A stretch of DNA of 51,872 nucleotides from an uncultured Candidatus Saccharibacteria bacterium (GCA_964449235.1 CAYVAX010000003.1:1-51872), one strand, 5' to 3'; positions 20,722 through 46,918 are shown, numbered from the stretch's first letter. Made by a program: numbers and translations. The notes: a model not told the origin generated them from the letters alone.

Positions 20722-22407
20722 ATGAGTATAAAAAAAGACAATCGGAAAAATAAAACGGAGGCAAAATTAAGAAAAATCCGCCGCGAGGAAGAAGAAGAAA
20801 AAACCAAACAAAAAGCATCTGAATTGGGGATTCCGTATTTGGACTTAGCCACGGTTCCTATCAACCCTTCAGGATTGCAAATTATTCCCCTGGATCAAGC
20901 TAAAAAGGCAAACCTGTGCATTCTCCAAAAATTTGGACGTTCGCTAAAAATAGCAGCTAATGATCCTAAAAGCAAGCAAGCAAAAAAAGCTTTAGATGAT
21001 TTAAAAAAGAAAGGATTTTCTTTTAAGCTGTTTTTAGTTTCACAATCAAGCCTGGAAACTGCCTGGAAAAGATTTAAACAGGAAACAGAAAAACGGAAAG
21101 AAATAAGCAGGCAAGTAGAAATTACCTCTGAAAGATTAAAAGAATTCCAAAAAGAAATAGACACTTTTAAGGACATTCAAAATAAATTTGAGGCAATTTC
21201 TAAGATGACTACTACAGAGATGATTGAAGTAATTTTAGCAGGAGCATTAAAAACTGAATCCTCTGATGTTCATCTTGAAACCAAAGAAAAAGAAGTCCGA
21301 TTAAGGTTCAGGATTGATGGAATCCTTCAAGATGTAACTCAAATTCCCAGCAATCTATACCATAATATCCTTTCCCGAATAAAAGTATTATCAGAATTGA
21401 AAATTAATGTTCATGACACTCCTCAAGATGGACGATTTTCAATTGTAATCGACAATCAGGAAATTGAAATTCGAACTTCAATTATCCCCAGCGCTTATGG
21501 AGAGAATATTGTACTGAGGATTTTAAACCCAAACACTATTGGTTTAGAATTAAAAGACCTGGGACTGGAAAAATATGCCCTGGAGATAATTAATAAGCAA
21601 TTAAAAAAACCCCATGGAATGATTGTAAATACCGGACCTACAGGTTCAGGTAAAACCACCACCTTATATGCCTTTGTTAAGCGTGTTAACAATCCGGAAA
21701 TCAAAATAATTACCTTAGAAAATCCAATTGAGTATCATTTACAAGGTATTGAGCAAACTCAAATCAAGCCAGATAAAGAATATACTTTTGCTAGCGGTTT
21801 AAGAGCTATTTTACGCCAGGATCCAGATGTTATCCTTTTGGGAGAGGTTAGGGATAATGAAACTGCAGAAACAGCAATTCATGCTGCTTTAACCGGCCAT
21901 TTAGTGTTTACCACTCTGCATACCAATGATGCTGCCGGAGCAATTCCCCGCCTGATTGATATGAAGGTTAATGCAAAATTAATTCCTTCTGCTCTCAATC
22001 TGGTGATTGCTCAAAGATTGGTGCGGAGAATATGTGAAAATTGTGCTCAAAAACACAAACCAAGCTCAACAGAAATTAATCGTTTAAAACAAACCTTAAA
22101 AACTGTTCCCAAGAATATTAAAAATAAATATCCGAACATAGATCAGAATTTAACTCTTCTAAAAGAGGGTAAGGGTTGTAAAAAATGTAATTTTACTGGA
22201 TATAAAGGGCGAATTGCAGTAATTGAATTATTTGTTATTGATGAAAAAATGGAAGAAGTTATTATCAAAGCTCCTTCAATCACAGAAATCAAACAGGCAG
22301 CAATTAAACAAGGAATGATCACTATTAAGCAAGATGCTATTTTCAAGATCTTAAATAAAATCACAACCATAAAGGAAGTAGAAAGAATTTTGGGATTATT
22401 AGAATAA
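20722..22407 (+). CDS. pilB: type II/IV secretion / type IV pilus assembly ATPase (GspE/PilB family)
   Basis: 561 aa. Walker A GPTGSGKTTTLYA, ILLGEVRD, His box TGHLVFTTLHTN, tetracysteine CENC...CKKC. Confidence 0.9.
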   Translation: MSIKKDNRKNKTEAKLRKIRREEEEEKTKQKASELGIPYLDLATVPINPSGLQIIPLDQAKKANLCILQKFGRSLKIAANDPKSKQAKKALDDLKKKGFSFKLFLVSQSSLETAWKRFKQETEKRKEISRQVEITSERLKEFQKEIDTFKDIQNKFEAISKMTTTEMIEVILAGALKTESSDVHLETKEKEVRLRFRIDGILQDVTQIPSNLYHNILSRIKVLSELKINVHDTPQDGRFSIVIDNQEIEIRTSIIPSAYGENIVLRILNPNTIGLELKDLGLEKYALEIINKQLKKPHGMIVNTGPTGSGKTTTLYAFVKRVNNPEIKIITLENPIEYHLQGIEQTQIKPDKEYTFASGLRAILRQDPDVILLGEVRDNETAETAIHAALTGHLVFTTLHTNDAAGAIPRLIDMKVNAKLIPSALNLVIAQRLVRRICENCAQKHKPSSTEINRLKQTLKTVPKNIKNKYPNIDQNLTLLKEGKGCKKCNFTGYKGRIAVIELFVIDEKMEEVIIKAPSITEIKQAAIKQGMITIKQDAIFKILNKITTIKEVERILGLLE

Positions 22408-22656: not shown

Positions 22657-24981
22657 ATGAATACTGACCCCCGAAAGCAACAAGAGGATCAAAATTTAGA
22701 CACCAGTCTCCGTCCTCTAAATTTTGACGAATATATTGGACAGAATAAAATAAAAAAGAGCCTCAAGATATTAATTGAGGCTGCTAAACAGCGAGGTGAA
22801 GTTACTGACCACCTGCTTTTTTATGGTGGCTCGGGATTAGGTAAATGCATTAACCAAAATAGTATAATATTCTCAGAGCAGGGCATAATTCCTCTTGGCC
22901 AGGTTGGAAATTTAAAAAAGAAAGGTTTTCAAAAAAAACAGATGGAAGTTTATTCTAATCCAGGGCCTCAAAAAACTTCTCATTTTTACAATAATGGAAA
23001 AAGTAGAACAATCAAAATCCGAACTCATCAAGGATATGAATTAGAGGGAACTTCAAATCACCCTATAGTTGTTCTAAACAGAAAAGGAGAGAAAGAGTTT
23101 AGAGAGCTCAAAGACATCAAGAAAAACGACTATGCCGCTATTCAAAGAGGGCAGAATTATTTTGGAACAAAAATTAAACTGCCTGAATTCAATTTCAAAA
23201 TTAAAGAAATGAACAAGTATGACTACGGTGCTTATAAAATACCGAATAAAATGACTCCTGAACTGGCTAGACTGTGTGGTTATTTAATCGGAGACGGATA
23301 TATAAGTTCTAAAGGTAGTAGAGGCGCTGTAGCTTTCTATAATAATGAAAAAGAAATTTTAAAAGATTTCCAAAAATTATGGTTCAAGGTTTTTGGACAG
23401 AAGCCAACAATAAAAAAATGGAAGACCAAATGCCCGGTTATTAGAGTTACAAATTTAAAATTCAGACAGTTTCTTGCAAGCATAGATATCCCTTTCTCTG
23501 TAGCAGCAAATAAAAAAATTCCGTCATCTATCAAAGTTGCTCCTAAAGACATTGTAAAAGAGTTTTTAAGCGCTTATTTCGAATGCGATGGTCATATTAG
23601 GCCGGATTGCAGACAAATCGATGTTTCGTCTGCTTCAAAACAGCTTATTAAAGAAATTCAAATTATTTTATTAAATTTCGGCATTGTTTCAAGAATTTAT
23701 GAAGATTTTAGCAAGTCAAACAAAAAAAGTTACTGGCGACTATATATTACTGGCGGAGATGTAGATATTTTTAACAAAGAAATCGGTTTTATTTCTTCCA
23801 GAAAAAAATATGCACAAAAAAACTTTAAAGCAAAAGTTAATACAAATAAAGATTTAGTTCCATATGCAAGGGAAAAAATAAAAAAACTTAGAAGGCAATT
23901 AATAACACTTAGAAAACAATTAGATAAAAAAGGGTATCGTGAATCTAACCGCAAGCAAGTATCTCAAACAGAAATACATAAATGTCTTAAATTTATAAAA
24001 AGCGCTATAAATGAAATTCAAAAAAAAGCTGAACAAGTGAAAAAAATAAGTGACCCCGGTATTTTTTGGGATAAGATTGAACAAATAGAAAAAGGATTTG
24101 CCCATACTGTTGATTTTTCTATTCCCTCAAATCATACTTTTTTTGCAAACGGCTTTATAAACCACAATACTACTCTAGCCCATATCATCGCCAAAGAATT
24201 AAACTCAAATATTAAAACCACTTCCGGACCGGCAATTGAAAAAGTTGGCGATTTAGCTTCAATTTTAAGTAATCTGGAAGAAGGAGATATCCTATTCTTC
24301 GACGAAGCTCACCGATTAAATAAGCTTATTGAAGAAGTTCTTTATCCGGCAATGGAAGAATATAAGCTGGATATCATTATCGGCAAAGGCCCTTCAGCAA
24401 GAACCCTGCAATTGAATCTCCCCCGATTTACATTAATCGCTGCTACTACCAGAGTGGGGCTTCTTTCTTCTCCGTTAAGAAACCGATTTGGGGCCACTTA
24501 CCAATTAAACTTCTACAGCACCAAAGACATTGAACAAATTATTCAACGTTCAAGTAAAATATTGGGAATAAAAACAGATCCTTTGGGAATTAAAAAAATT
24601 GCTAAACGAGCAAGATTTACTCCTCGAGTTGCTAATCGATTATTAAAACGAACAAGGGATTATGCTCAAATAAAAGGGCAGGGAGTAATCACTAAAGAGA
24701 TTGCCGAGCAAGCTCTAAAAATGCTAGAGATAGACGAATTGGGATTAGAACAAGCAGACAGAAATATTCTGAAAGTGATTATTGAAAAATTTAATGGCGG
24801 TCCAGTGGGATTAAGCTCTATTGCCGCTGCTGCTTCTGAAGAAAAAGATGCAGTCAGTGATATTTACGAGCCGTATTTAATGTGTACTGGCCTTTTATCC
24901 CGCACACCCAAAGGAAGAATTGCAACCAGGCGTGCTTACGAGCATTTAAAAATTGAACCCCCTCAAGATCGTTTAGTATAA
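22657..24981 (+). CDS. ruvB: Holliday junction DNA helicase RuvB, interrupted by an intein
   Basis: 774 aa. The exteins total 333 aa and are colinear with RuvB: ...[11 protein letters not shown] | [11 protein letters not shown]..., Walker [11 protein letters not shown], sensor [17 protein letters not shown]. Confidence 0.95.
22846..24168 (+). mobile_element. 441-aa class 1 intein with LAGLIDADG homing endonuclease domain, inserted in the RuvB Walker A loop
   Basis: It begins at Cys (TGC 22846) after GLGK. Block B is [18 protein letters not shown] motifs are [12 protein letters not shown] and [12 protein letters not shown]. The terminal [10 protein letters not shown] ends at 24168, and the +1 residue is Thr. 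Confidence 0.9.
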
Positions 24982-25034: not shown

Positions 25035-26447
25035 ATGAAAAAAATAATTTACTTCCTCTTAATATATCTCCTATTACTCCCCTTAACCACAAACGCAACT
25101 GTGGTTATTAATGAAATTTGTTGGATGGGTACAGAAAATTCTGCTAATGATGAATGGATTGAGCTTTATGCTGACCAACAAACAAATTTAGATGGTTGGA
25201 TTTTGGAATCGAAAGATGGAACTCCGAGTATAAGATTGGAAGGCAATATTCCTGCTCAGGGATATTTTCTTATAGAAAGAACTGATGACAATTCTGTGCC
25301 CAATATTCCTGGAGATCAAATCTATACAGGAGCGTTGTCTAATTCTGGAGAACATCTTCAACTTAAAGATAATAATCAAAATTTAATTGACGAAATTAAT
25401 TGCAGCCAGCAATGGATTGCTGGAGATAATTCCACAAAACAAACCATGGAAAGAACTGGCGATAGCTGGCAAACAAGCTTAGACCCTCACGGCACGCCTA
25501 AAGATGAAAACAGCGCCCTGCAAGAATTCGTGGAGCCTGAGCAATTTCAACGATCTGAGCAAGACAATTCTGAAGCTGAAAACCAGCCACCAATTGCCAA
25601 TGCCGGCAATGATATTGTTGGATTTGTTGATCAAATAATCATTCTTAATGCTTCTCGCTGTTATGACCCCAATAATGATCTTTTAAATTATCAATGGAAT
25701 CTAGGAGATGGAGAAATTAGCAATCAGGCAGTAACTGAACACAAATATGCTCATCCAGGAGAATTTTTGGTCTCATTAACTATTTCTGACAATTCTTATT
25801 CAGACACAGACACAATCAAAGTCAATATTTATCCTAAAGAAATAATGATCAATGAGTTTATTCCTGATCCTGAGGGAAAAGACTCCGAACAAGAATGGAT
25901 TGAGATATATAATAATCTTGATCAAGCTATTGATCTTTCTGGCTGGTTTTTAGACGATGAACCCGAGGGAAGCAACCCCTTTATGATCCCCGAAAATAGC
26001 TTAATCCCTCCAAAAGGATATTCGGTATTTTCTCGCAAAACAACAAAGATTGCTTTAAACAATGACAGTGATCAAGTAAGATTGCTCCTTCCAGACAAAA
26101 ATGTATTTCAAGAAATCAGTTATCAACAAACTGAACAAGGAAAGTCTTTGGCTAAAAGTCCGCAAGGATTTGTCTATAGCGTACCCACGCCTGGATTTTC
26201 AAATAGCAGCGGGATTGAGCAAGAAAAAATTAATTCTCAAAAAACAGCTCAATCCACCTCTGCAAATAGTCAATCTAAACAACAAAGCCCCCCTAAAAAG
26301 CTTGACTCTGAACAAAAATACTATAACCTTGCAGACTTAGAAAATTCAACTAATAGCAATAGTAAATTTATCCTTATTCTTGCAGCAATCGCAACTGCCA
26401 TATTCATTATCGGAATTTTAAAGCTTAGAAGCCGTAATAATTCTTGA
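25035..26447 (+). CDS. membrane-anchored surface protein: lamin-tail domain - PKD domain - lamin-tail domain
   Basis: 470 aa with a signal peptide. LTD signatures VVINEICWMGT..NDEWIELY and IMINEFIPDPEG..EQEWIEIYN. PKD-like PIANAGNDI...YQWNLGDGE...HKYAHPGEFLVSLTISD. C-terminal TM helix. Confidence 0.7.
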   Translation: MKKIIYFLLIYLLLLPLTTNATVVINEICWMGTENSANDEWIELYADQQTNLDGWILESKDGTPSIRLEGNIPAQGYFLIERTDDNSVPNIPGDQIYTGALSNSGEHLQLKDNNQNLIDEINCSQQWIAGDNSTKQTMERTGDSWQTSLDPHGTPKDENSALQEFVEPEQFQRSEQDNSEAENQPPIANAGNDIVGFVDQIIILNASRCYDPNNDLLNYQWNLGDGEISNQAVTEHKYAHPGEFLVSLTISDNSYSDTDTIKVNIYPKEIMINEFIPDPEGKDSEQEWIEIYNNLDQAIDLSGWFLDDEPEGSNPFMIPENSLIPPKGYSVFSRKTTKIALNNDSDQVRLLLPDKNVFQEISYQQTEQGKSLAKSPQGFVYSVPTPGFSNSSGIEQEKINSQKTAQSTSANSQSKQQSPPKKLDSEQKYYNLADLENSTNSNSKFILILAAIATAIFIIGILKLRSRNNS

Positions 26448-26480
26448 CTTTTAAGCTATGTTTTGAGAAAATACAAATAT

Positions 26481-27020
26481 ATGTCAGGGCATTCAAAATG
26501 GTCAAAAATTAAACATAAGAAGAAAGCAACTGACAAAAAGAAAGGTAAAATCTTTAGCAAAATAGCAAAGATGATATCTGTGGCTGCCCGCAAAGGAAAT
26601 GATCCCGAAACCAATCCGGATTTAAGAATGGCTATTGAAAAAGCTAAGTCTATAAACATGCCCAATGATAATATTGAAAAAGCAATTCAAAAAGGATCAG
26701 GAAAAGGAGAAGAAGGACAATTAGAAGAAATGAATTATGAAGCTTATGGTCCCAATGCTACTCCTCTGATTATCAAAACTATGACCGATAATAAGAATCG
26801 GACTTTGGCGGAAATAAAAAATATTTTAAACAATTTTGACAGCAAGCTTGCTGAATCCGGAAGTGTTAAATATTTATTTAATAAAAAAAACGGTGAATGG
26901 ATAGCAAAATATACTACAGAATTAAACAACCAAAAAGTGAAGCAACAGTTAAAGAAACTTTTTGAACAGCTTCAAGAGCATCAAGACGTAGAACAGATTT
27001 ATTCTAATGTAAACTTTTAG
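26481..27020 (+). CDS. yebC: YebC/PmpR-family protein (short form)
   Basis: The ORF track starts at TTG 26463. I prefer ATG 26481 (MSGHSKWSKIKHKK, the canonical YebC start). At 179 aa it is shorter than the ~240 aa typical of the family. Confidence 0.85.
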   Translation: MSGHSKWSKIKHKKKATDKKKGKIFSKIAKMISVAARKGNDPETNPDLRMAIEKAKSINMPNDNIEKAIQKGSGKGEEGQLEEMNYEAYGPNATPLIIKTMTDNKNRTLAEIKNILNNFDSKLAESGSVKYLFNKKNGEWIAKYTTELNNQKVKQQLKKLFEQLQEHQDVEQIYSNVNF

Positions 27021-27023
27021 TCC

Positions 27024-27488
27024 ATGGTAATTTTAGGCATTGACCCCGGGACTGCAAGAATAGGGTTCGGAGTCATTAATAACAACCAAAAATTAAAATT
27101 AATCGGATATGGTTGCATACAAACGCCTAAAACTTTAAAAAACCCTCAAAGACTAGCTGAGCTCGAAAATCAATTACGCCAGATAATTAAGAAGTATAAG
27201 CCTGAAAGGGTAGCTGTAGAAGATCTTTTCTTTTTTAAAAATTTAAAAACAGCAATTAGTGTCAGTCAGGCTCGAGGAGTAATTTTATTAACAGCAGCAA
27301 AATCAAAAATTCCGATTTTGGAATATACTCCCTTGCAGATAAAACAAGCTGTAACCGGCTATGGCCGAGCAGAGAAAAAGCAAGTCCAGAAAATGGTTAA
27401 GATGATTTTAAATTTAAAAAAGATTCCTAAGCCTGACGATGCTGCTGATGCTTTAGCAGCAGCAATCTGCTGCGCACATTCAATATAA
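27024..27488 (+). CDS. ruvC: crossover junction endodeoxyribonuclease RuvC
   Basis: 154 aa. MVILGIDPGTARIGFGVI, VAVEDLFF, PDDAADALAAAIC. Confidence 0.92.
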   Translation: MVILGIDPGTARIGFGVINNNQKLKLIGYGCIQTPKTLKNPQRLAELENQLRQIIKKYKPERVAVEDLFFFKNLKTAISVSQARGVILLTAAKSKIPILEYTPLQIKQAVTGYGRAEKKQVQKMVKMILNLKKIPKPDDAADALAAAICCAHSI

Positions 27489-27490
27489 TT

Positions 27491-28150
27491 ATGCCTTTAA
27501 TTGTCGACTACATGACCGCTCAGGGCGTACCAGAGCTCTCTCTGGTGTTTTTTCTAATGCTTCCGGTAGTAGCAACCGTTATTAGCTTTGCCCGTCAAGT
27601 TATTGGAATTAAAGCCTTTGGTTTATACGTCCCTTTAATCATTACTTTTGCTTTTTTGGCTACTGGAATTAAATATGGAACAGTAGTCTTTTTACTTACA
27701 TTAATTGTGGGAACTGGAATGAGATTTATTTTAAGAAAAATCCGACTTTTATACTTGCCTCGGATGGCACTTACATTAATAACAATTACTATCTCGATTT
27801 ATGTCCTGTTTTTAATTGCTATCCATTTCGATAAAATTGGATTTGTCCAGGTTGCAGTATTCCCAGTGCTAATTTTGGTCATCCTCTCAGAAAAATTCAT
27901 TGCCACACAAATCCATAGAGATAACCGAGTAGCAATTATTCTAACTTTAGAAACTCTAATCCTGGCAACAATCTGCTATTATTTAATCACCTGGGTTGGT
28001 TTTCAACAATTCGCGCTTAATTACCCCTTAATTGTCATCGGAGGAGCAATTGTTATAAACTTATTGCTTGGTCGCTGGACAGGATTAAGATTAACCGAAT
28101 ATATTAGATTTAAAGAGGTTGCAAAACAGATAAAGAAAACTAAAAAATAA
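27491..28150 (+). CDS. 7-TM membrane protein of the type usually fused to an inactive transglutaminase
   Basis: 219 aa with seven hydrophobic helices by eye. The N-terminal LPVVATVISFARQVIGIKAFGLYVPLII pattern resembles the 7TM_transglut family. It is adjacent to a RimK-related ATP-grasp, as in known operons. Confidence 0.55.
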   Translation: MPLIVDYMTAQGVPELSLVFFLMLPVVATVISFARQVIGIKAFGLYVPLIITFAFLATGIKYGTVVFLLTLIVGTGMRFILRKIRLLYLPRMALTLITITISIYVLFLIAIHFDKIGFVQVAVFPVLILVILSEKFIATQIHRDNRVAIILTLETLILATICYYLITWVGFQQFALNYPLIVIGGAIVINLLLGRWTGLRLTEYIRFKEVAKQIKKTKK

Positions 28151-28154
28151 CTGC

Positions 28155-29480
28155 ATGTTCAAATCACTTAAGAACTACCAGCAGCTGTTAGGAATTAATA
28201 AGCGAAATCTAAAATATATAAAGCCCTCTAATTCCCGGAGGGCTATTCGTATTGCAGATAATAAATTGTTAAATAAGCGATTTTTAGTTAAACATTCCCT
28301 GCCAGTAGCTAAAACTTACGCTGTTATAAGCAAAAGGGCAGAATTAAACAATTTTAATTGGTCAACTTTACCAAAAAGCTTTGTATTAAAACCTAATCGC
28401 GGAATGGGCGGAGAAGGAATTTTAATTGTTTACGGTAAGATAAAGAAAAAAGACCCTAAGGATGCTCCGGTTTGGGTTCAAGCTGATCGTTCTAAAATAA
28501 CCATTCCTGATCTTGATGATTATGTTTTAAATATTTTAGATGGTAAATACTCTAGAAATCAAGTTCCAGATATTGCTATTTTCGAAGAACGGTTAAAATT
28601 ATTAAGAATGTTTAAACCTTATGCTTTCCGAGGAGTTCCTGATATTCGTATTATTGTATACAACTCTGTGCCAATTATGGCTGAATTGCGATTACCCACT
28701 AAAGAATCACAGGGAAGGTCTAATCTGCACTTAGGAGGAGTGGGAGTAGGAATTGATATGGCCACAGGATTAACTATTGCTGCTGTTTGGCATGGAAAGT
28801 TAATTAAATATCTTCCAGGAACTCGAATTTCCTTATTGGGGATAAAAATCCCTAAATGGAAAACATTATTAGAATTAGCAATTGAGTCTCAAAAAGCTAC
28901 GGGCATTGGTTTCTTAGGCGTAGATATTGGTTTAGACCGAGAAAAAGGCCCTGTAATCTTAGAATTAAATGCCCGCGCTGGCCTCTCTATTCAAGTTGCT
29001 AATTTAACTCCTCTATATTCACGACTGAAGAAAGTAGAAGGGTTGAATGTAAAATCAACAAGGCAGGCAATCCGTTTATCACAGGATTTGTTCGGTGGAC
29101 AGATAGAAGAAGAGCTGGAAGAACTTTCCGGAAGAAAAATCATTGGAATTAAAGAAAAAATACAGTTGATAGACAAGCAAGGAGAAAAATGCGAAGTAAT
29201 CGCAAAAGTGGACACAGGTGCTTATCGAACCAGCATTTGTAAATCATTAGTTAAAAAAATAGGGATTACTGACGCTATTAAGCATAAAAAAGTGAGAAGT
29301 TCTTTAGGGAAAAAGGAAAGACCGATCATTGACCTTTCCTTTCTTTTAGATAAAAAAAGAGTTTCTACAGAGGCATTTATTGCAGATCGTAGAAAAATGA
29401 AATACGATGTAATCATCGGCAGAAAAGATTTAAAAAAATTCTTAGTTGATCCTGCAAAAAATATATTAATTAAAAAATAA
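28155..29480 (+). CDS. alpha-L-glutamate-ligase-like (RimK-related) ATP-grasp fused to a RimB-type retropepsin-like domain
   Basis: 441 aa. The N-terminus LLGINKRNLKYIKPSNSRRAIRIADNKLLNK plus VLKPNRGMGGEGI and ILELNARAG match the ATP-grasp family. The C-terminal ~115 aa (from about 29130) carry KVDTGAYRTSI (DTG at 29211-29219) and VIIGRKDL. Confidence 0.7.
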   Translation: MFKSLKNYQQLLGINKRNLKYIKPSNSRRAIRIADNKLLNKRFLVKHSLPVAKTYAVISKRAELNNFNWSTLPKSFVLKPNRGMGGEGILIVYGKIKKKDPKDAPVWVQADRSKITIPDLDDYVLNILDGKYSRNQVPDIAIFEERLKLLRMFKPYAFRGVPDIRIIVYNSVPIMAELRLPTKESQGRSNLHLGGVGVGIDMATGLTIAAVWHGKLIKYLPGTRISLLGIKIPKWKTLLELAIESQKATGIGFLGVDIGLDREKGPVILELNARAGLSIQVANLTPLYSRLKKVEGLNVKSTRQAIRLSQDLFGGQIEEELEELSGRKIIGIKEKIQLIDKQGEKCEVIAKVDTGAYRTSICKSLVKKIGITDAIKHKKVRSSLGKKERPIIDLSFLLDKKRVSTEAFIADRRKMKYDVIIGRKDLKKFLVDPAKNILIKK

Positions 29481-30982
29481 TGGTTATTCAAGATTCAAAA
29501 ACATTAAAAAAATTCTTTAAGCGCAATGTCAAGTTCCCAATTTTTGGAGCAGGAGTTTATCCTTTTCATCGGTTGGGTCCGGAAGATTTTGTTTCCGATT
29601 ATCGAATCTTGACTTTAAGAAGAAGTTTGGACGGAGAGCTGATAAAAAAGGATCTAAACGTCCAAACTATTGAAAAAGGCTTAGGAAGAAAGCACATTAG
29701 AAAGCCAAGAAACGCAACCACGATTTTAAAACATCCTAAAATAAAAAAATATTTAAAGAAATTCAAGAACGTAAATATTTTAGTTTATAAGCCCTCTTCA
29801 AGAATGGAAAGGCACTGTGAAAAAAATAACTGGAATTTACTTATCCCTCGCTTTAAATTTGGTAAAAAGCTATTTGAAAATAAAATTAAATTCAGAGAAA
29901 TCTTAGAAAAAATTGATGTTCCTGCTCCTCCAGGGAAAGTTACCAGCCTGGACAAACTTCATTATGGTCATTTAATTAATAGCTACGGACTTCCCTTTGT
30001 AATCCAGCATCCAACCAAAGGAGGAGGAAAAGGAACTTTTTTTATTAACACCAAAGAAGACTTTGATAAAGCATACAAAAAATTAAAGCATCCTACCCAT
30101 CAAACTTATTTAGGCGAAAAAGAAGAAAAACCAGCACCAGAAGTAATTGTGGCCAAATTTATTGAGGGCCCATCTCCAAGTATTACCGGATGCGTTACTA
30201 AACACGGAATCTTATCTACGAATTTACAATATCAGATACTGGACATCCCCCAACTTTATAACCCCGCAAAAGGCTCGGGACTATTTTGCGGGCATGATTG
30301 GAGTTTTTCAAAATTTCCAAAAGAAATTGAAAACCAAGCTTATCGTATTGTGGAAAAAGTCGGAAACTATTTTAAACAAAACAACTACAAAGGAATTTTC
30401 GGCCTGGATTTTATAATGAACAAAGATACCAATAAACTTTACGTTACTGAAACCAATCCCCGCTTATTAGGATCATTCCCAGTATTGCCCATGGTCCAGG
30501 CTAAAAATAAAGAGCCATCAATTTTAGGATTTCATATCTTAGAGCATTTAAATATTGATTATGCTATGGATATAAAAAATATTAACGATTTAATGAGAAA
30601 ACCAAAACGAGGAGCACAGATGATTCTACACAACTTAACTGGTCGATGGACCAGAATCGGAAAAACAGTCAAGCCGGGTATTTACGAGCTTGATAGAAAT
30701 GGAAAAATAAAATTTTTGAGATCGGGTTATAAGCTTCAGCATCTTAAACGAAAAACTGAATTTTTAATAACTGGCGGAATTTTAATTAAAAAATCTCACC
30801 TTAGTCCCAACAGAAGATTATGTAGAATTTTAACCCTGGGAAAGGTTCTAGAAAATTATCAGCAATTAAATCCATGGGCGCAAACAATTGCAGAAGCAGT
30901 CTATAAAACATTTCATCTAAAACCTATAAAATTCATAAAGTTCAAAAAAATATTTGCTCCTAATTTTTTAGCAAAAGGATAA
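29480..30982 (+). CDS. ATP-grasp domain protein, unassigned specificity
   Basis: 500 aa. The central FVIQHPTKGGGKGTFFI, VIVAKFIEG and FGLDFIMNKDTNKLYVTETNPRL fit the ATP-grasp fold. The first ~150 aa are unassigned. One-nt overlap (TAATG) with the upstream gene. Confidence 0.6.
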   Translation: MVIQDSKTLKKFFKRNVKFPIFGAGVYPFHRLGPEDFVSDYRILTLRRSLDGELIKKDLNVQTIEKGLGRKHIRKPRNATTILKHPKIKKYLKKFKNVNILVYKPSSRMERHCEKNNWNLLIPRFKFGKKLFENKIKFREILEKIDVPAPPGKVTSLDKLHYGHLINSYGLPFVIQHPTKGGGKGTFFINTKEDFDKAYKKLKHPTHQTYLGEKEEKPAPEVIVAKFIEGPSPSITGCVTKHGILSTNLQYQILDIPQLYNPAKGSGLFCGHDWSFSKFPKEIENQAYRIVEKVGNYFKQNNYKGIFGLDFIMNKDTNKLYVTETNPRLLGSFPVLPMVQAKNKEPSILGFHILEHLNIDYAMDIKNINDLMRKPKRGAQMILHNLTGRWTRIGKTVKPGIYELDRNGKIKFLRSGYKLQHLKRKTEFLITGGILIKKSHLSPNRRLCRILTLGKVLENYQQLNPWAQTIAEAVYKTFHLKPIKFIKFKKIFAPNFLAKG

Positions 30983-32007
30983 TGATCTACTTTATCAATA
31001 ACCCCAAACAGCCAATATCTTTAGAAGACATCTACGATCATCGAAATATCTATTTACTAGCAAAATCTGCTTTAGAGAAAAAAATTAACTGTGAGCTCTT
31101 GTTACGACCAAGAAAAAACCAGCGTGATATTATATTTTTACGATTTGCAAAAAGTAAAAACAAAAAATGGTTTGGATGTGAACAAGGGTTTTTTAATTCT
31201 AAAGCAAGCTGCGACTTTTGTTTATATAAATATCTGACGAATGATTTATTAAAAATATTAAAATTCCCTCTTCCTCAGTCTCAAAAAATCAAAAACATTA
31301 AGCAGTTAAACAATCTTCCAATTAACCCTCCCTGGGTAGTAAAACCATCTTCTGGCACTCAGGGAAAAGATGTTATTGTGAAAATAGAAAAATATATTAA
31401 TCTTAAAAAAACTTGCAATAAACTTTTATTAAAATATCCCAGTTTAATAGTTGAAAAATTTATCCCAGGAAATGATTATAGATTAATGGTTCTCGAAAAT
31501 AAGTTTTTAGCAGCAATAAAAAGAGTGCCTCCATCTATTAAAGGAGATGGTAAGCACAGTTTAAGAGAACTTATAAATATTACCAATAAGAAAAGAGGGA
31601 AGCTTAAGAAAAAAGACACCCCTTATTTAAAACCAATAAAAATTGACTGGGAATTAAAACATACTCTTAAAAAACAAGAATTATTTTTAAAATCAATCAG
31701 CCCTGAAAATAAAAAAATAAAACTAAGAGAAAACGCTAATTTCTCCAGCGGAGGAACAGTTATAGATGTAACTCATAAAGTACATCCTGAAAACAAAAAA
31801 ATAGCCCTGAAAGCAATACATGCTTTAGGACTAAAAATTGGAGGAGTGGATATAATTTTAAAAGATATTAGCAGGCCAATAACTAAAACTAATGGAAAAA
31901 TAATCGAAGTAAACAGTTCTCCTGGCTTATGGCCACATCACTTTCCGAATTATGGTAAAAGCCAGCCAGTAGCCAAAGAAATCATTAATTATTTATTCAG
32001 TAAATAA
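30982..32007 (+). CDS. stand-alone ATP-grasp ligase resembling the cyanophycin synthetase G domain
   Basis: 341 aa. WVVKPSSGTQGKDV, VEKFIPGNDYRLMVLENKFLAAIKRVP, LRENANFSSGGTVIDVTHKVHPEN and GLKIGGVDIILKDISRP..GKIIEVNSSPG are colinear with the CphA ATP-grasp region as remembered. No Mur-ligase-like M domain. Confidence 0.75.
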   Translation: MIYFINNPKQPISLEDIYDHRNIYLLAKSALEKKINCELLLRPRKNQRDIIFLRFAKSKNKKWFGCEQGFFNSKASCDFCLYKYLTNDLLKILKFPLPQSQKIKNIKQLNNLPINPPWVVKPSSGTQGKDVIVKIEKYINLKKTCNKLLLKYPSLIVEKFIPGNDYRLMVLENKFLAAIKRVPPSIKGDGKHSLRELINITNKKRGKLKKKDTPYLKPIKIDWELKHTLKKQELFLKSISPENKKIKLRENANFSSGGTVIDVTHKVHPENKKIALKAIHALGLKIGGVDIILKDISRPITKTNGKIIEVNSSPGLWPHHFPNYGKSQPVAKEIINYLFSK

Positions 32008-33213
32008 TTAAACAATTTTTCTAAATCTTCTTTTCCCTGCCTGGATAACCATTCCTTTTTTTAAAGGAATTTTTTGTTTCCAATCTTTAATAACTTTATT
32101 ATCTATTTTTACTGCTCCCTGGATTATTAATCTTTTTGCCTCTGTTTTAGAAGAAGCAAGGTCAGTTGCAGTTAATATTGTAGCTGTATCAGAAATTCCT
32201 TTTAGCTCGTTCCGGGAAAAGGTCTTAATCTCTGAAGGAGTTTTTTTCTGTTTAAAAACACGATTAAATTCTTTTTCGGTCTTTTCTGCGACAGTTTTAG
32301 AATGATAAATTGAAACAATTTCTCGAGCCAATTTAGCTTTATCATCGCGAGGATTATTTTTCTGTTTCTTAATTTTCTCAATTTCTTTCAAAGATAGATC
32401 TGTGCAGAGTTCAAGTCCTAAAAAAATTAATGAGTCTGGCCAGGACATAACTTTTCCATACATTTCTTTAGGAGTTTCATTTAAATTAATAACATTTCCT
32501 TCTGTTTTGCCCATTTTCTTTCCAGTAGAATCTTCTAATATCTTAGTAGTCACAACAAATTTTTCTTTATTCTTGAGTTTATCTATTAAATCTCTTCCTC
32601 TGAGCATATTAAAGGTTTGGTCATTTCCTCCCACTTCCAAATCTATATCCATAGCAACGCTGTCATAGGCCTGGAATAAGGGGTAAAGAAATTCAGCTAA
32701 TACAATTGGTTTGTCTTTTTTAATTCTTTTTTGGAACATATCCCGAGCTAAGAATTGCTGAATAGTAAAATTAAATGCCAAATCAATTACACTTAATGAA
32801 CTTAATTTTTTATTCCATTCACTATTTCTCTTCAGCTTGGCAGGATTTTTACCAGAGAAATTTAAAATTTTACCAGCTTGTTTTTTGTAATTCTTTAAGT
32901 TTTTCTCCACTTCTTGTTCAGTTAATTTCTTTCTAACTGCAGCTTTATCTGTAGGATCACCAATCAAGGCAGTAAAATCTCCGACTAGAAAAATGATTTC
33001 GTGACCTAATTGTTGAAATTGAGCTAACTTTCTAATTTGAATTGCATTTCCTAAATGAAGATTAGGGGAGGTAGGGTCAAATCCACAATAAACCCGAATT
33101 TTTTTTCCGGATTTTATTTTTTTTTCTAATGCTTTCTTGTTAGGATAGATTTTTTCTACCCCTTTTTCTAAAGCTTTATCTATTAATTTTTGATTTGTAA
33201 TAACTTTGCTCAT
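32008..33213 (-). CDS. tyrS: tyrosine--tRNA ligase
   Basis: 401 aa. HIGH motif (NLHLGN), KMSKS motif (KMGKT), C-terminal S4 domain (AKRLIIQGAVKIDNKVI). Confidence 0.9.
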   Translation of the reverse strand: MSKVITNQKLIDKALEKGVEKIYPNKKALEKKIKSGKKIRVYCGFDPTSPNLHLGNAIQIRKLAQFQQLGHEIIFLVGDFTALIGDPTDKAAVRKKLTEQEVEKNLKNYKKQAGKILNFSGKNPAKLKRNSEWNKKLSSLSVIDLAFNFTIQQFLARDMFQKRIKKDKPIVLAEFLYPLFQAYDSVAMDIDLEVGGNDQTFNMLRGRDLIDKLKNKEKFVVTTKILEDSTGKKMGKTEGNVINLNETPKEMYGKVMSWPDSLIFLGLELCTDLSLKEIEKIKKQKNNPRDDKAKLAREIVSIYHSKTVAEKTEKEFNRVFKQKKTPSEIKTFSRNELKGISDTATILTATDLASSKTEAKRLIIQGAVKIDNKVIKDWKQKIPLKKGMVIQAGKRRFRKIV

Positions 33214-36586: not shown

Positions 36587-37726
36587 TTACAATTTAATTG
36601 GCATTATTACATAAATAAATTTGGAATCATCTACAGGCGTTAATATTCCAGGATTAGTTTCTCCATTTAATCCTAAACTTACTTTATTACTATTAATACC
36701 ATTTAAACCATCTAAAAGATATTTATGATTGAAAATAATTTCTACTTCTTTTCCTTTTATTTCTGATTTTAATTCTGAAACATTTTCTCCAGTTTCCGTA
36801 TCTTGAGCATAAATTTTAATTAAAGATTTTTTAGGAATAACCTTTAACCTTATATCATTAATTCTACTGCTAAATAAACTGGTAACTTTAACTGCCTTTA
36901 AAAATTTATCTGTATCTACTTTTAAACTAGTTTCAAATTTATCAGAAATAAGTTGTTTATAATTAGGATAAGACCCTTCAATTAATCGAGAAATAATTTG
37001 AGAATTAGAAGTTTTGAATAATATTTGATTTTGCTCAACTGACATTTCTACTATTGTATCCTCTTCCTCGCTAAGAATTCTCATTAATTCCTGTATTGTT
37101 CTTGAGGGTACAATAATTGATTTTTTAAATTTTGCTTTTTTATCAGAAGATAAACTTATTTCTTTCTTATTTTTACCAATTAAAATAGTTTTTTCACCTA
37201 ATCGAAAACTATCTGTAGTTACAAATTTAATTTGCTTAGGATTAATATCAATTAGCACTCCTGAAATTTCCGGCCGAATATCAGAAACAGAACTAAAGTT
37301 TATTATTTGGCTTAAAGCTTTATTTAATTTATCAGCTTTTATTTTTAATATTGGCTTACTTTTTATTTTAGGAACAATAGGAAATTCTTTAGCTCCAACT
37401 CCTTTAATGCTAGATTTAAAATTTTCGCATTTTATCTGAAGAGAGTTATTTTTATTACTTTTTATTTCTACTTTTTTATCTGGAAGATTATTCACCAGAT
37501 CACTAAATAATTTTGCAGGTATAGTAATTTCTCCATCTTTTTTCACTTTACAGGGACTCCAGTGAAGAATTGCAATTTCTAAATTAGTGGCTACTAATTT
37601 AAGTTGTTTATTTTCTATTTTTAATAAAATATTATTTAAAATTGGAAGAGTTAAATTTTTTCCAATAATATTTTGAATAATATTAATTCCTTTTTTTAAG
37701 TTTTTTTGTAAAGCAGTTATTTCCAT
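36587..37726 (-). CDS. dnaN: DNA polymerase III beta sliding clamp
   Basis: 379 aa. The N-terminus LPILNNILLKIENKQLKLVATNLEIAI is typical. It lies downstream of dnaA. Confidence 0.9.
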   Translation of the reverse strand: MEITALQKNLKKGINIIQNIIGKNLTLPILNNILLKIENKQLKLVATNLEIAILHWSPCKVKKDGEITIPAKLFSDLVNNLPDKKVEIKSNKNNSLQIKCENFKSSIKGVGAKEFPIVPKIKSKPILKIKADKLNKALSQIINFSSVSDIRPEISGVLIDINPKQIKFVTTDSFRLGEKTILIGKNKKEISLSSDKKAKFKKSIIVPSRTIQELMRILSEEEDTIVEMSVEQNQILFKTSNSQIISRLIEGSYPNYKQLISDKFETSLKVDTDKFLKAVKVTSLFSSRINDIRLKVIPKKSLIKIYAQDTETGENVSELKSEIKGKEVEIIFNHKYLLDGLNGINSNKVSLGLNGETNPGILTPVDDSKFIYVIMPIKL

Positions 37727-37965
37727 ATTTTTGAAGAATAATAATTATTAGTTTCTTAAATTTAAATAAATATTATTATTATTAAGGATTAAATTTCTGG
37801 GGAAAAGCTAATAATTTAGCTTAGCTAACCATACTTTTATAGATAAGAAATTGAGGAGATATTGTGTAGAAGATTGGTAATAAAATAGGATAAAATTATA
37901 GTTATTGAATTAACTTAAAATTACTACCTGTTTCTCCACAATTTTTAAATAAACTTATTAACAAG
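37727..37965. other. dnaA-dnaN intergenic region, possible oriC part
   Basis: 239 nt and very AT-rich. One 8-of-9 DnaA box TTCTCCACA at 37932-37940, plus weaker matches. Confidence 0.3.
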
Positions 37966-46451: not shown

Positions 46452-46918
46452 TTTTTAAGTTTGCTTAATTTTTTAGTAATTCCTTTTTTTCGCACCTTCT
46501 TAGCTCCGTGAGCAATAGCGGCGCGACCAATTTTTTTTCTTCTCAGCCAGAGGTAGATGATATAAAGGGTCCAAAATCCAATCATTCCTATTGGAGAAAG
46601 CTCGCCAATAAAGGCAGCAAACAACACATACACAGGATCTCTTCGGGGATTAGGCAATTGCTGAAGTTTAATCTCGATAAATGCCCAAAGCCCCAGGAGC
46701 ATTGGAATATCAACAATGCGGGCAATAATTGCTCCAAAGCCAGTTAAGTCTAATAAGTCTACAATATCAACAATAATTGCAGCTAAAAGAACAATAATCC
46801 ACTCTGCTGTATTTATATTAAACTCTCTTTCTTTTGGCTTCGGAGCTGAACCCTTTTTTTTCTTATCCAAATTTCTTGCCTGGTTGAGTTCACTTTCAAA
46901 TTTCGTTTCTTTATTCAT
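46448..46918 (-). CDS. small polytopic membrane protein, hypothetical
   Basis: The ORF track starts at 47020. I prefer ATG 46918 (MNKETKFESE), which overlaps the VirB4 stop by 8 nt. That gives 156 aa with 3-4 TM helices and a basic tail. Confidence 0.45.
   Translation of the reverse strand: MNKETKFESELNQARNLDKKKKGSAPKPKEREFNINTAEWIIVLLAAIIVDIVDLLDLTGFGAIIARIVDIPMLLGLWAFIEIKLQQLPNPRRDPVYVLFAAFIGELSPIGMIGFWTLYIIYLWLRRKKIGRAAIAHGAKKVRKKGITKKLSKLKK

What the first reader, a model, noticed from the sequence alone, without database searches (positions are those of the whole stretch)
27491..32007. Operon of a 7-TM protein plus three different ATP-grasp amidoligases (one with a retropepsin-like domain), fused onto yebC-ruvC
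Four genes are packed with 0-4 nt spacers or 1-nt TAATG overlaps (29478-29482 and 30980-30984). They start 2 nt after the ruvC stop. The first is a bare 7-TM protein of the kind normally fused to an inactive transglutaminase. The second is an alpha-L-glutamate-ligase-like (RimK-related) ATP-grasp carrying a RimB-type retropepsin-like domain. The third is a 500-aa ATP-grasp with an unassigned N-terminal ~150 aa. The fourth is an ATP-grasp resembling the cyanophycin synthetase G domain. The two-gene core (7-TM/transglutaminase plus RimK-related ligase) is a known but functionally uncharacterised association. The version here has three distinct amide-bond-forming ligases, a built-in protease-like domain, and no precursor peptide gene or exporter. 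It looks like a machine for non-ribosomal synthesis and trimming of an amino-acid polymer or a peptide tail on a protein or cell-envelope target. Its placement inside a housekeeping operon argues for a core rather than accessory role.
Basis: partly seen in the sequence, partly recalled or inferred. Interest (0 to 1): 0.75.

Follow-up and report, generated by a model that had tools for sequence, protein, structure and literature searches.

The report
Cut-down Rlo-type peptide ligase/protease operon
This is a stripped-down version, from tiny Patescibacteria, of a poorly understood bacterial membrane system that builds and trims acidic peptide chains; it is real and strongly conserved, but only two of its four genes are constant and its product is still unknown.

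Summary
Four tightly packed genes follow ruvC, and the domain calls are correct: a 7TM protein, an ATPgrasp_ST ligase fused to a retropepsin, a 500-aa ATP-grasp, and an ATP-grasp like the cyanophycin-synthetase G domain.

The system is a Patescibacteria (Parcubacteria group) variant of the Rlo system (RloA/B/C) described genetically in Pseudomonas in 2025. Here RloB is reduced to its membrane bundle. The RloC-type ligase is fused to an intact, unsecreted RloA/RimB-type protease.

Across 54 lineages only ruvC–7TM–ligase/protease is constant (42/42 and 41/42). Gene 3 follows in 24 of 38 lineages. A true gene 4 orthologue occurs in 2 of 38. The downstream slot otherwise holds interchangeable ligases and peptidases (RimK-like, CphA-G-like, MATCAP/QEGLA, M17, RimK-GNAT, MurF-like), and 35 of 38 lineages carry at least one.

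Fused proteins elsewhere tie gene 3 to the core: gene 2 plus gene 3 in one chain, MATCAP plus gene 3, and retropepsin plus gene 3.

Most likely the module makes acidic (Glu-rich) peptides or peptide tails at the membrane, cuts them, and probably hands them outward. The substrate and product are unknown. I classify it as a new variant of a known kind, of moderate interest.

The parts
26463..27020 (+). yebC (short form, about 180 aa); probable first gene of the transcription unit. The true start is probably the ATG at 26483 (MSGHSKW...).
   Evidence: PF20772/PF01709 and NF001030 E 5e-62. Sequence read. Precedes ruvC in the related loci that reach far enough upstream.
27024..27488 (+). ruvC; its stop codon lies 2 nt before gene 1.
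   Evidence: PF02075 E 6.5e-53; NF000711 at 235 bits, above the 163 cut-off. Found upstream of gene 1 in 41 of 42 lineages, median gap 5 nt.
27491..28150 (+). Gene 1: stand-alone 7-helix membrane protein, equivalent to the C-terminal membrane bundle of RloB. It has no transglutaminase-like domain. Predicted N-terminus outside, C-terminus inside.
   Evidence: PF14402 E 2e-26; NF052267 RloB positions 316-507 of 508 only. 29% identity to Legionella RloB residues 316-505. In RloB the hydrophobic block starts at about residue 311. AF2 model pLDDT 86 with 7 long helices. No PDB fold relative. Present in 42 of 42 lineages.
28155..29090 (+). Gene 2, N-terminal part (aa 1-312): RloC-type ATP-grasp amide ligase (alpha-L-glutamate-ligase-like).
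   Evidence: PF14397 E 2.7e-61; TIGR02291 E 1.3e-75 but 254 bits, below the 314 cut-off. 36.8% identity to Legionella RloC over aa 11-313. ATP-grasp motifs invariant (LKPN K79, FEER 143-146, ELN 270-272).
29091..29138 (+). Gene 2 linker (aa 313-328), FGGQIEEELEELSGRK: a near-invariant acidic stretch between ligase and protease.
   Evidence: Invariant F313 G314 G315 E318 E322 S325 G326 in alignment A1. A similar 'EKIEELEEEQ' occurs in the distant fused protein P0408. Its role (self-cleavage site or pseudo-substrate) is inferred only.
29160..29477 (+). Gene 2, C-terminal part (aa 336-441): compact retropepsin-like aspartic protease domain of the RimB/RloA type. It has no signal peptide. The catalytic DTGA is at aa 353-356 (nt 29211-29222).
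   Evidence: PF05618 E 1.5e-9; NF052264/52262/52263/52261 RloA3/RloA/RloA2/RimB; TIGR03698. PDB 9g58/9g59. K351, D353, G355, A356 and R412 are invariant; R389 is nearly invariant.
29480..30982 (+). Gene 3: 500-aa three-domain ATP-grasp of the biotin-carboxylase/PurK/PurD/L-amino-acid-ligase structural type. It is a frequent but not universal partner of gene 2.
   Evidence: NF005096 aligned full length, E 6.5e-48 but 163 bits against a 684 cut-off. AF2 pLDDT 90.8. Foldseek TM 0.5-0.68 at 12-15% identity. Present in 24 of 38 lineages. Fusions with gene 2, retropepsin, MATCAP and RimK-like domains.
30982..32007 (+). Gene 4: stand-alone ATP-grasp equivalent to the G domain of cyanophycin synthetase, a ligase type that extends a peptide at its C-terminus. 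It is a rare accessory gene.
   Evidence: TIGR02068 positions 204-472, E 8e-76. PDB 7lgn E 1e-40 with the ANxSxGGT and EVNSSPG motifs aligned. The only orthologue at 50% identity or more is in L008 (60%); CphA-G-like genes at 29-40% identity occur in 5 more lineages.
32008..33213 (-). tyrS, convergent; marks the downstream boundary of the cluster (0-nt spacer).
   Evidence: ORF; junction. It is the conserved boundary gene in most related loci.

Best explanation
This is a reduced Patescibacteria version of the Rlo system (RloB membrane protein, RloC ATP-grasp ligase, RloA retropepsin), extended by swappable extra ligases.

Proposed mechanism:
1. The N-terminal ATP-grasp of gene 2 uses ATP to join amino acids, most likely glutamate in alpha-linkage. 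It makes either a free acidic oligo- or polypeptide or a tail on the C-terminus of a target.
2. The retropepsin domain fused to its C-terminus dimerises and cuts within acidic runs. This would limit chain length and release product, as RimB does for RimK.
3. Gene 1, the 7-helix bundle, docks the ligase at the inner face of the membrane. Docking would use its conserved cytoplasmic loop (RLLYLPR) and C-terminal helix (GLRLxEYxRF). Gene 1 most likely passes the product outward.
4. Gene 3 and gene 4 are further ligases that activate a carboxylate to add, prime or cap with other residues. Other lineages use RimK-type or CphA-G-type ligases instead, and MATCAP or M17 exopeptidases for trimming.

Shown here: gene order, the domains, intact catalytic motifs, conservation, and the gene fusions.
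Shown in the literature for homologues only: polyglutamate cleavage by RloA and RimB, stimulation of RimK by RimB, and suppression of rloA defects by loss of rloB or rloC.
Inferred: glutamate as the substrate, docking to gene 1, export, and the specific roles of genes 3 and 4.
For: Domain identities:
- Searches give the profile assignments.
- Gene 2 aa 11-313 is 36.8% identical to Legionella RloC, which lies in a canonical retropepsin / inactive-transglutaminase-7TM / ligase operon.
- Gene 1 is 29% identical to the membrane bundle of that RloB. The cytoplasmic motifs are shared: LRLLLVPR and GYRLLELVRF in RloB.

Protease integrity:
- The catalytic DTGA is invariant across 31 homologues.
- The K-x-D lysine (K351) and two arginines (R389, R412) align with residues of the solved RloA structures. 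By offset these correspond to K46, R114 and R137, which bind polyglutamate in RloA (PMC12239564).

Conservation:
- Gene 1 is present in 42 of 42 lineages and ruvC in 41 of 42.
- Median gaps are 2-5 nt, and in 12 lineages gene 1 and gene 2 overlap by 26 nt.

Functional linkage of the extra genes:
- 35 of 38 lineages have at least one further ligase or peptidase after gene 2.
- Fused proteins include P0408 (ATPgrasp_ST + retropepsin + gene-3-type ATP-grasp), P0412 (retropepsin + gene-3-type), P0365 (MATCAP + gene 3), and P0438/P0453 (RimK-like + gene-3-type).

Literature on homologues:
- RimB cleaves polyglutamate and stimulates RimK about four-fold (PMC11957791).
- Deleting rloB or rloC rescues the triple rloA mutant, and RloA is periplasmic, so the RloB/RloC-dependent product must reach the periplasm (PMC12239564).
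- Disrupting an RloB homologue in Shewanella changes membrane-vesicle output (PMC12096838).
Against: - No product or substrate has been identified for any RloC-type ligase, so glutamate specificity is extrapolated from RimK and from the protease's specificity.
- Gene 2 scores below the curated TIGR02291 cut-off (254 against 314 bits).
- The 7TM fold has no solved relative (best Foldseek E = 1.1), so a transport role has no structural support.
- Here the protease is cytoplasmic, whereas RloA is periplasmic. The Pseudomonas logic (cleave after export) therefore cannot simply be carried over.
- No acidic-tailed candidate substrate lies in the window.
- Three lineages have nothing in the accessory slot, so genes 3 and 4 are dispensable for the core function.
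- The survey covers one clade only, at 52-76% identity to gene 2.
Confidence: 0.5

Rival explanations
1. The system modifies a cytoplasmic protein tail, like RimK/RimB. The ligases add and the peptidases remove residues on the C-terminus of a protein such as ribosomal protein S6. The 7TM protein only anchors or regulates the enzyme, for instance in response to osmotic or membrane state. Nothing is exported.
For: - The protease domain has no signal peptide and is fused to a cytoplasmic ligase, as in the RimBK hybrids (PMC11957791).
- RimK-family genes occupy the accessory slot in several lineages, and one is fused to a RimI-like acetyltransferase (L070).
- MATCAP-type C-terminal carboxypeptidases occur in the slot or fused to gene 3. 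This recalls cycles that add and remove residues on a protein's C-terminus.
Against: - The ligase is of the RloC type (TIGR02291, E 1e-75), not the RimK type (TIGR00768, 48 bits against a 143 cut-off).
- The membrane partner is present in 42 of 42 lineages, and no membrane partner is described for RimK systems in the two papers read.
- In Pseudomonas the RloB/RloC-dependent product must reach the periplasm.
- No acidic-tailed protein is encoded nearby.
Confidence: 0.25
2. The system modifies the cell envelope or peptidoglycan precursors. The ligases add amino acids to a lipid-linked or wall-bound acceptor such as a stem peptide or a surface glycopolymer, and the 7TM protein handles that lipid-linked intermediate.
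For: - A class A penicillin-binding protein lies 1-5 kb downstream in nearly all lineages.
- A MurF-like ligase occupies the slot in L084.
- rlo mutants in Pseudomonas show cell-shape and ampicillin phenotypes.
- The Pfam name of the ligase family refers to association with sugar transfer.
Against: - PBP1 is separated from the cluster by the convergent tyrS, so it is not co-transcribed.
- PBP1 is also part of a wider syntenic block that may carry no functional meaning.
- The MurF-like gene appears in one lineage only and could be the housekeeping murF (233 bits against a 289 cut-off).
- The protease's conserved basic residues point to polyglutamate-like chains, not stem peptides.
Confidence: 0.1
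3. Genes 3 and 4 are unrelated neighbours (primary-metabolism ATP-grasp enzymes, or cyanophycin-like storage) that sit next to a two-gene Rlo-like module only because the genome is compact.
For: - Gene 3's best named match is a 'biotin carboxylase' model, and its fold resembles PurK, biotin carboxylase and PurD.
- Gene 4 is present in only 2 of 38 lineages.
- Compact genomes pack unrelated genes tightly; gene 4 and tyrS abut with 0 nt between them.
Against: - Gene 3 scores far below every curated cut-off (163 against 684 bits).
- Independent fused proteins join gene-3-type domains to gene 2, to a retropepsin, to MATCAP and to RimK-like ligases.
- Gene 4 has only the G domain of cyanophycin synthetase, with no M or N domain.
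- The slot is filled by a ligase or peptidase in 35 of 38 lineages.
Confidence: 0.05

Closest known systems
RloABC operon of Pseudomonas aeruginosa and other Gammaproteobacteria (Lormand et al. 2025, PMC12239564); an example was read here on a Legionella adelaidensis plasmid (L088)
   Same: - The same three protein modules sit in one operon: a 7-helix membrane bundle (PF14402), an ATPgrasp_ST / TIGR02291-type ligase, and a PF05618 retropepsin with DTGA.
- Gene 2 is 37% identical to RloC and gene 1 is 29% identical to the RloB bundle.
- The basic residues that bind polyglutamate in RloA appear conserved.
   Different: - There is no inactive-transglutaminase domain and no N-terminal anchor on the membrane protein.
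- The protease is not secreted. It has no signal peptide and no disulfide pair, and it has a flap region about 30 residues shorter. It is fused to the C-terminus of the ligase through a conserved acidic linker.
- Gene order is membrane protein, then ligase-protease, rather than protease, membrane protein, ligase.
- Extra ATP-grasp ligases follow.
- The cluster is embedded after yebC-ruvC.
- The host is a Patescibacterium, whereas that paper reports 96% of RloB hits in Proteobacteria.
RimK/RimB and the RimBK hybrid (Little et al. 2025, PMC11957791)
   Same: A cytoplasmic ATP-grasp ligase is paired or fused with a retropepsin-like endopeptidase. In that system the ligase makes poly-alpha-L-glutamate and glutamylates S6, and the protease cleaves glutamate runs and stimulates the ligase.
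   Different: - RimBK has the protease at the N-terminus; here it is at the C-terminus.
- The ligase here is of the RloC type, not the RimK family (48 bits against a 143 cut-off).
- No membrane partner is described for RimK systems in the papers read.
- A haloarchaeal RimK-type protein with the same ligase-then-protease order was found in passing (L089).
Cyanophycin synthetase CphA1, G domain (PDB 7lgn, 7lg5)
   Same: Gene 4 aligns over the whole G domain (E 1e-40) with the catalytic loop motifs conserved. From general knowledge of CphA1, this domain activates the C-terminal carboxylate of a peptide and adds an amino acid.
   Different: It has no N domain and no Mur-ligase-like M domain, so it cannot make cyanophycin by itself. 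It scores 256 bits against the 850 cut-off.
Eukaryotic tubulin-tail enzymes (TTL/TTLL ATP-grasp ligases with MATCAP carboxypeptidase); an analogy in enzymology only
   Same: ATP-grasp ligases that add residues to an acidic C-terminal tail work alongside a MATCAP-family (PF08014) carboxypeptidase. MATCAP/QEGLA genes lie between gene 2 and gene 3 in several lineages, and one is fused to gene 3.
   Different: There is no evidence that the substrate here is a protein tail, and this window has no MATCAP gene. The comparison rests on my own knowledge of the eukaryotic system.
PgsBCA / CapBCA poly-gamma-glutamate synthase; a functional analogy from my own knowledge
   Same: An ATP-dependent amide ligase works with small integral membrane partners to make and export an anionic amino-acid polymer, and a dedicated peptidase trims it.
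   Different: The protein families are unrelated (Mur-ligase-type PgsB; different membrane proteins), and the linkage there is gamma.

Membership tests
Rlo system (RloA/RloB/RloC) | RloC: cytoplasmic ATP-grasp matching TIGR02291 at or above its cut-off | tested here: inconclusive
   TIGR02291 E 1.3e-75 over positions 10-311 of 317, but 254 bits is below the 314 cut-off. 36.8% identity to Legionella RloC.
Rlo system (RloA/RloB/RloC) | RloB: inactive transglutaminase domain (PF14400) fused to the 7TM bundle (PF14402) | tested here: not met
   Only PF14402 is found. NF052267 matches positions 316-507 of 508 at 74 bits against a 900 cut-off. Legionella RloB has both domains.
Rlo system (RloA/RloB/RloC) | RloA: separate, secreted retropepsin with a signal peptide and a conserved disulfide | tested here: not met
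   The protease is the C-terminal domain of the ligase and gene 2 has no N-terminal hydrophobic segment. Only one invariant Cys (C362) lies in the domain. RloA models score 27-29 bits against cut-offs of 210-280.
Rlo system (RloA/RloB/RloC) | Catalytic D-T-G-A motif and basic residues lining the substrate channel | tested here: met
   K351, D353, G355, A356 and R412 are invariant; T354 and R389 are at least 90% conserved in 31 sequences. They align with the RloA structures 9g58/9g59.
Rlo system (RloA/RloB/RloC) | Membrane protein, ligase and protease encoded together in one operon | tested here: met
   Gene 1 and gene 2 are adjacent in 42 of 42 lineages, with a median gap of 4.5 nt.
Rlo system (RloA/RloB/RloC) | Role in tolerance of low-osmolarity stress, and suppression of protease loss by loss of the ligase or membrane protein | not testable with these tools
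   This needs genetics, and no cultured host is available.
RimBK hybrid / RimK family | RimK-family ligase (TIGR00768 at or above 143 bits) | tested here: not met
   Gene 2 scores 47.9 bits and gene 4 scores 57.1 bits.
RimBK hybrid / RimK family | RimB domain at the N-terminus of the ligase | tested here: not met
   The protease domain is at aa 336-441, C-terminal to the ligase. The RimBK domain order is given in PMC11957791.
Cyanophycin synthetase (CphA1) | N, G and M domains in one protein; TIGR02068 at or above 850 bits | tested here: not met
   Gene 4 covers only model positions 204-472 and scores 256 bits. PDB alignment is to residues 179-463 of 7lgn.
Biotin carboxylase / PRK06524 (NF005096) | Score at or above the curated cut-off (684 bits) | tested here: not met
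   Gene 3 scores 163 bits, though aligned full length. Its fold matches the general biotin-carboxylase/PurK/PurD class at 12-15% identity.
ATP-grasp superfamily (genes 2, 3 and 4) | ATP-grasp fold with the conserved Lys, glycine-rich loop and E-x-N metal-binding motif | tested here: met
   Pfam ATP-grasp hits for all three genes. Gene 2 has K79 and ELN 270-272. Gene 3 has GGGKG 181-185 and E324-x-N326-x-R328 and a confident model. Gene 4's EVNSSPG aligns with CphA1.

The most novel reading that the evidence does not exclude
Parcubacteria-type Patescibacteria carry, next to their replication and recombination genes, a minimal membrane-coupled machine that synthesises and exports a peptide without a template. 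The machine would build an anionic heteropeptide on or outside the cell, serving as a functional stand-in for teichoic acids or a capsule, or as an interface with the host. Its composition would be set in each lineage by the swappable ligases and peptidases in the slot after gene 2. The conserved acidic linker in gene 2 would act as a built-in pseudo-substrate or self-cleavage switch for the fused retropepsin.
Probability: 0.2. Interest if true: 0.8.

Novelty: new variant of a known kind. Interest (0 to 1): 0.55.

Why it matters
The biochemical job of the Rlo system is an open question. It affects osmotic tolerance, cell shape, biofilm formation and antibiotic sensitivity in Pseudomonas, yet neither the ligase's product nor the membrane protein's role is known.

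The Patescibacteria version is a natural minimal form, and it makes three points:
- The transglutaminase-like domain is dispensable and the 7-helix bundle is the essential partner.
- The protease can act in cis from the cytoplasmic side.
- The fusions and the variable slot reveal new partners (the gene 3 family, MATCAP, CphA-G-type and RimK-type ligases).

That gives concrete constructs for in vitro reconstitution. For Patescibacteria biology, it flags a conserved ATP-consuming module retained in very small genomes, which suggests it contributes to envelope or surface function.

Tried and rejected
The survey therefore relies on metagenome contigs chosen for similarity to gene 2, which biases it toward one clade.
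- The listing of cluster members gave almost no organism names.
- Foldseek of the gene 1 model against the PDB gave no significant match (best E = 1.1, an RnfA-like subunit).
- The promoter scan found no more sites than in shuffled sequence (45 against 43), so it gives no evidence for or against an internal promoter. One TG-extended match lies just upstream of yebC.
- A scan of window ORFs for acidic C-terminal tails or acidic runs found only an internal EEEEE in the PilB-like ATPase, so no candidate substrate emerged.
- The Iyer et al. 2009 amidoligase paper (PMC3268129) is not held. What I say about it is from memory.
- There are no relatives on viral contigs and no match to defence-system models, so I rejected mobile-element and defence readings.
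- No tRNA or Rfam element occurs in the window.
- I considered and rejected assigning gene 3 as biotin carboxylase or PurK, and gene 4 as cyanophycin synthetase, because the scores fall far below the cut-offs and required domains are missing.

Full report
**Observation.** The junctions are as described. The ruvC stop is followed by 2 nt and the gene 1 ATG. The gene 1 stop is followed by 4 nt and the gene 2 ATG. TAATG overlaps lie at 29478-29482 and 30980-30984. The gene 4 stop also abuts the stop of the convergent tyrS with no spacer.

- Gene 1: PF14402 7TM_transglut, E 2e-26.
- Gene 2: PF14397 ATPgrasp_ST (E 3e-61), TIGR02291 (E 1e-75), and PF05618 with the RloA/RimB retropepsin models in its last ~105 residues.
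- Gene 3: generic ATP-grasp models plus a full-length but sub-threshold match to NF005096.
- Gene 4: the G-domain region (positions 204-472) of cyanophycin synthetase, E 8e-76. CphA1 structure 7lgn is its best solved relative (E 1e-40).

None of the genes reaches the curated cut-off of a primary-metabolism enzyme.

**What is known.** NCBIfam's model names led to two 2025 papers. Lormand et al. (PMC12239564) named the Pseudomonas operon rloABC. RloA is a secreted dimeric retropepsin that cleaves runs of eight or more glutamates. RloB is an inner-membrane protein with a periplasmic inactive transglutaminase domain and seven helices. RloC is a cytoplasmic ATP-grasp. Loss of all three RloA paralogues causes low-osmolarity lethality and defects in cell shape, biofilm formation and antibiotic resistance. 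Deleting rloB or rloC suppresses these defects. Little et al. (PMC11957791) showed that the cytoplasmic homologue RimB cleaves polyglutamate tails and stimulates poly-alpha-glutamate synthesis by RimK about four-fold. They also showed that RimB-RimK hybrids exist, with the protease at the N-terminus. A canonical trio on a Legionella plasmid allowed direct comparison. Gene 2 residues 11-313 are 37% identical to RloC. Gene 1 is 29% identical to RloB residues 316-505.

**Anatomy of the core.**

*Gene 1.* Gene 1 corresponds to the whole hydrophobic bundle of RloB. In Legionella RloB the hydrophobic block begins at about residue 311, and the preceding Pfam positions are not hydrophobic. Gene 1 therefore lacks the N-terminal anchor, the transglutaminase-like domain and the juxtamembrane linker, but not any helices. 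It has seven hydrophobic segments. The K/R-rich loop between segments 3 and 4 (RKIRLLYLPR) and the K/R-rich C-terminal tail put the N-terminus outside and the C-terminus inside. This matches RloB, whose periplasmic domain precedes the bundle. The most conserved features are the cytoplasmic RLLYLPR loop, the C-terminal GLRLxEYxRF helix, and polar residues in the helices (R35, E134, K135, Q140, E154). The first two are shared with Legionella RloB. The AF2 model is confident (pLDDT 86) but has no significant relative in the PDB.

*Gene 2.* Gene 2 has no signal peptide or membrane segment. Its ligase motifs and the protease DTGA are invariant in 31 homologues. The lysine two residues before the catalytic Asp (K351) and two arginines (R389, R412) align with the solved RloA structures. 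By their offsets from the catalytic Asp they correspond to K46, R114 and R137, which bind polyglutamate in RloA. That mapping is an inference. The protease domain is about 30 residues shorter than RloA between the DTG and ERP motifs, which is the flap region. A near-invariant acidic linker (FGGEIEEELEEISGR in the consensus) joins the two domains, and a similar linker occurs in a distant fused relative. Because these proteases recognise acidic runs, the linker could be a self-cleavage site or a pseudo-substrate. This was not tested.

**Genes 3 and 4.** The gene 3 model (pLDDT 90.8, pTM 0.91) aligns over about 470 columns with PurK, biotin carboxylase, PurD, PurT and the dipeptide ligase BacD. 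TM-scores are 0.5-0.68 at only 12-15% identity. The 'unassigned' N-terminus is therefore the usual pre-ATP-grasp domain, and the fold does not reveal the substrate. The family has 228 clusters (at 50% identity) with E ≤ 1e-30. Gene 4 is a stand-alone G domain with the catalytic loops conserved. From general knowledge of CphA1, this domain extends a peptide at its C-terminal carboxylate.

**Conservation.** The gene 2 fusion has thousands of relatives (3336 with E ≤ 1e-10 among the candidates scored). Where named, they are Patescibacteria, Parcubacteria or Portnoybacteria. Gene 1 and gene 3 relatives carry the same labels. I surveyed 87 loci, which dereplicate to 54 lineages.
- Gene 1 precedes gene 2 in 42 of 42 lineages with enough upstream sequence, and ruvC precedes gene 1 in 41 of 42.
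- Median gaps are 5 nt (ruvC to gene 1), 4.5 nt (gene 1 to gene 2, with a 26-nt overlap in 12 lineages) and 2 nt (gene 2 to gene 3).
- Of 38 lineages with at least 2 kb downstream, 24 have gene 3. Only 2 (the window and L008) have a gene 4 orthologue.
- The remaining lineages carry other genes in the same slot: RimK-family ligases, CphA-G-like ligases at 29-40% identity to gene 4, MATCAP/QEGLA carboxypeptidases, an M17 aminopeptidase, a RimK-GNAT fusion, or a MurF-like ligase. Three lineages have nothing there.

The conserved unit is therefore two genes plus a variable slot for ligases and peptidases, not the four-gene set. The survey is limited to relatives at 52-76% identity. These share a larger syntenic block (ruvB, LTD/PKD protein, yebC, ruvC, cluster, tyrS, PBP1), so adjacency to ruvC may be inherited order rather than functional coupling.

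**Linkage of the accessory genes.** Fused proteins found with gene 3 as query tie it to the core:
- P0408 (926 aa; its cluster was seen on several contigs) combines ATPgrasp_ST, a retropepsin and a gene-3-type ATP-grasp. This is gene 2 plus gene 3 in one chain.
- P0412 combines a retropepsin with a gene-3-type domain.
- P0365 combines MATCAP with gene 3 (55% identity).
- P0438 and P0453 combine RimK-like ligases with a gene-3-type domain.
- P0377 adds a GNAT domain.

This argues strongly against gene 3 being an unrelated neighbour.

**How it most likely works.** I propose the following.
1. The gene 2 ligase domain polymerises acidic residues, probably glutamate, either free or on a C-terminus.
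2. The fused retropepsin dimerises and cuts these runs, limiting their length and releasing product, as RimB does for RimK.
3. Gene 1 holds the enzyme at the membrane through its conserved cytoplasmic motifs and probably passes the product outward.
4. Genes 3 and 4, or their alternatives, add other residues, and exopeptidases trim.

The outward step is inferred from Pseudomonas. There the protease that relieves RloB/RloC-dependent toxicity is periplasmic while the ligase is cytoplasmic. It is also consistent with the envelope phenotype of a Shewanella RloB mutant. Patescibacteria are thought to lack an outer membrane (my own knowledge), which could explain why the protease has moved into the cytoplasm as a fusion.

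Shown here: architecture, motifs, conservation and fusions.
Shown in the literature: the biochemistry and genetics of homologues.
Inferred: substrate identity, docking, export, and the order of action.

**Rivals.**
- A purely cytoplasmic protein-tail modification, with the 7TM protein as anchor or sensor. This is supported by the RimK-type, RimI-like and MATCAP genes in the slot.
- A cell-wall or envelope precursor modification. This is supported by the nearby PBP1, a MurF-like gene in one lineage, and the Pseudomonas shape and ampicillin phenotypes.
- Chance adjacency of genes 3 and 4. For gene 3 this is largely excluded by the fusions.

**Novelty and verdict.** No paper in the searched library describes this Patescibacteria form. 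Lormand et al. describe RloB as 96% proteobacterial. The modules themselves are known, so I file this as a new variant of a known kind. It fails the membership tests for a canonical Rlo operon on the transglutaminase domain and the secreted protease, and it fails the RimBK test on domain order and ligase family. It nonetheless very probably works like these systems. Interest is moderate (0.55). The system is real, ancient within its clade and informative as a minimal form, but its product remains unknown.

Noticed in passing
window 22657-24981 (+): RuvB is 774 aa because an intein with a LAGLIDADG homing-endonuclease domain (roughly residues 65-504) interrupts the P-loop region. Relatives in L001 and L004 have an uninterrupted RuvB of 337-340 aa.
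   Followed up: partly
window 26463-27020 (+): YebC is about 180 aa, against a profile length of 245. The match stops at profile position 137, and the relatives are equally short. The real start is probably the ATG at 26483 (MSGHSKW), not the TTG at 26463. A TG-extended promoter-like match lies at 26444-26472.
   Followed up: partly
window 25035-26447 (+): A secreted or anchored protein with lamin-tail (LTD) and PKD domains and a C-terminal hydrophobic anchor. It is conserved between ruvB and yebC in most related loci.
   Followed up: partly
window 36587-39351 (-): dnaN and dnaA lie about 5 kb downstream of the cluster, as they also do in L001. The whole block therefore sits close to the probable replication origin.
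   Followed up: no
L089 4236-5621 (Halorarius halobius plasmid): A haloarchaeal 461-aa protein has a RimK-type ATP-grasp followed by a C-terminal retropepsin domain with DTGA. This is the same domain order as gene 2 and the reverse of the published RimBK hybrid. It lies next to a succinylglutamate desuccinylase/aspartoacylase-family gene.
   Followed up: partly
L070 6864-8258: In one lineage the slot after gene 2 holds a RimK-family ligase fused to a RimI-like (S18-alanine acetyltransferase-type) GNAT domain. This hints at a link to ribosomal-protein modification.
   Followed up: no
L058 4191-5249; L081 8892-10001; P0365: Bacterial MATCAP/QEGLA (PF08014, TIGR02421) carboxypeptidase genes sit between gene 2 and gene 3 in several lineages, and one is fused to gene 3. 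Its eukaryotic namesake removes the C-terminal tyrosine of tubulin.
   Followed up: partly
window 8038-11772 (+): A 1244-aa protein whose C-terminal 520 residues match PF13941 ('MutL protein'); the N-terminal 700 residues are unassigned.
   Followed up: no
window 46911-48728 (-) and 20722-22407 (+): A TraG/VirD4-like P-loop ATPase and a PilB-type T2SSE ATPase. The latter contains the only acidic run (EEEEE) found in the window.
   Followed up: no
L007 (CAZVDC010000002.1): This record is titled 'uncultured Candidatus Saccharibacteria bacterium', yet it shares 70% identity in gene 2 and full synteny with the Parcubacteria-type loci. The label may be loose.
   Followed up: no
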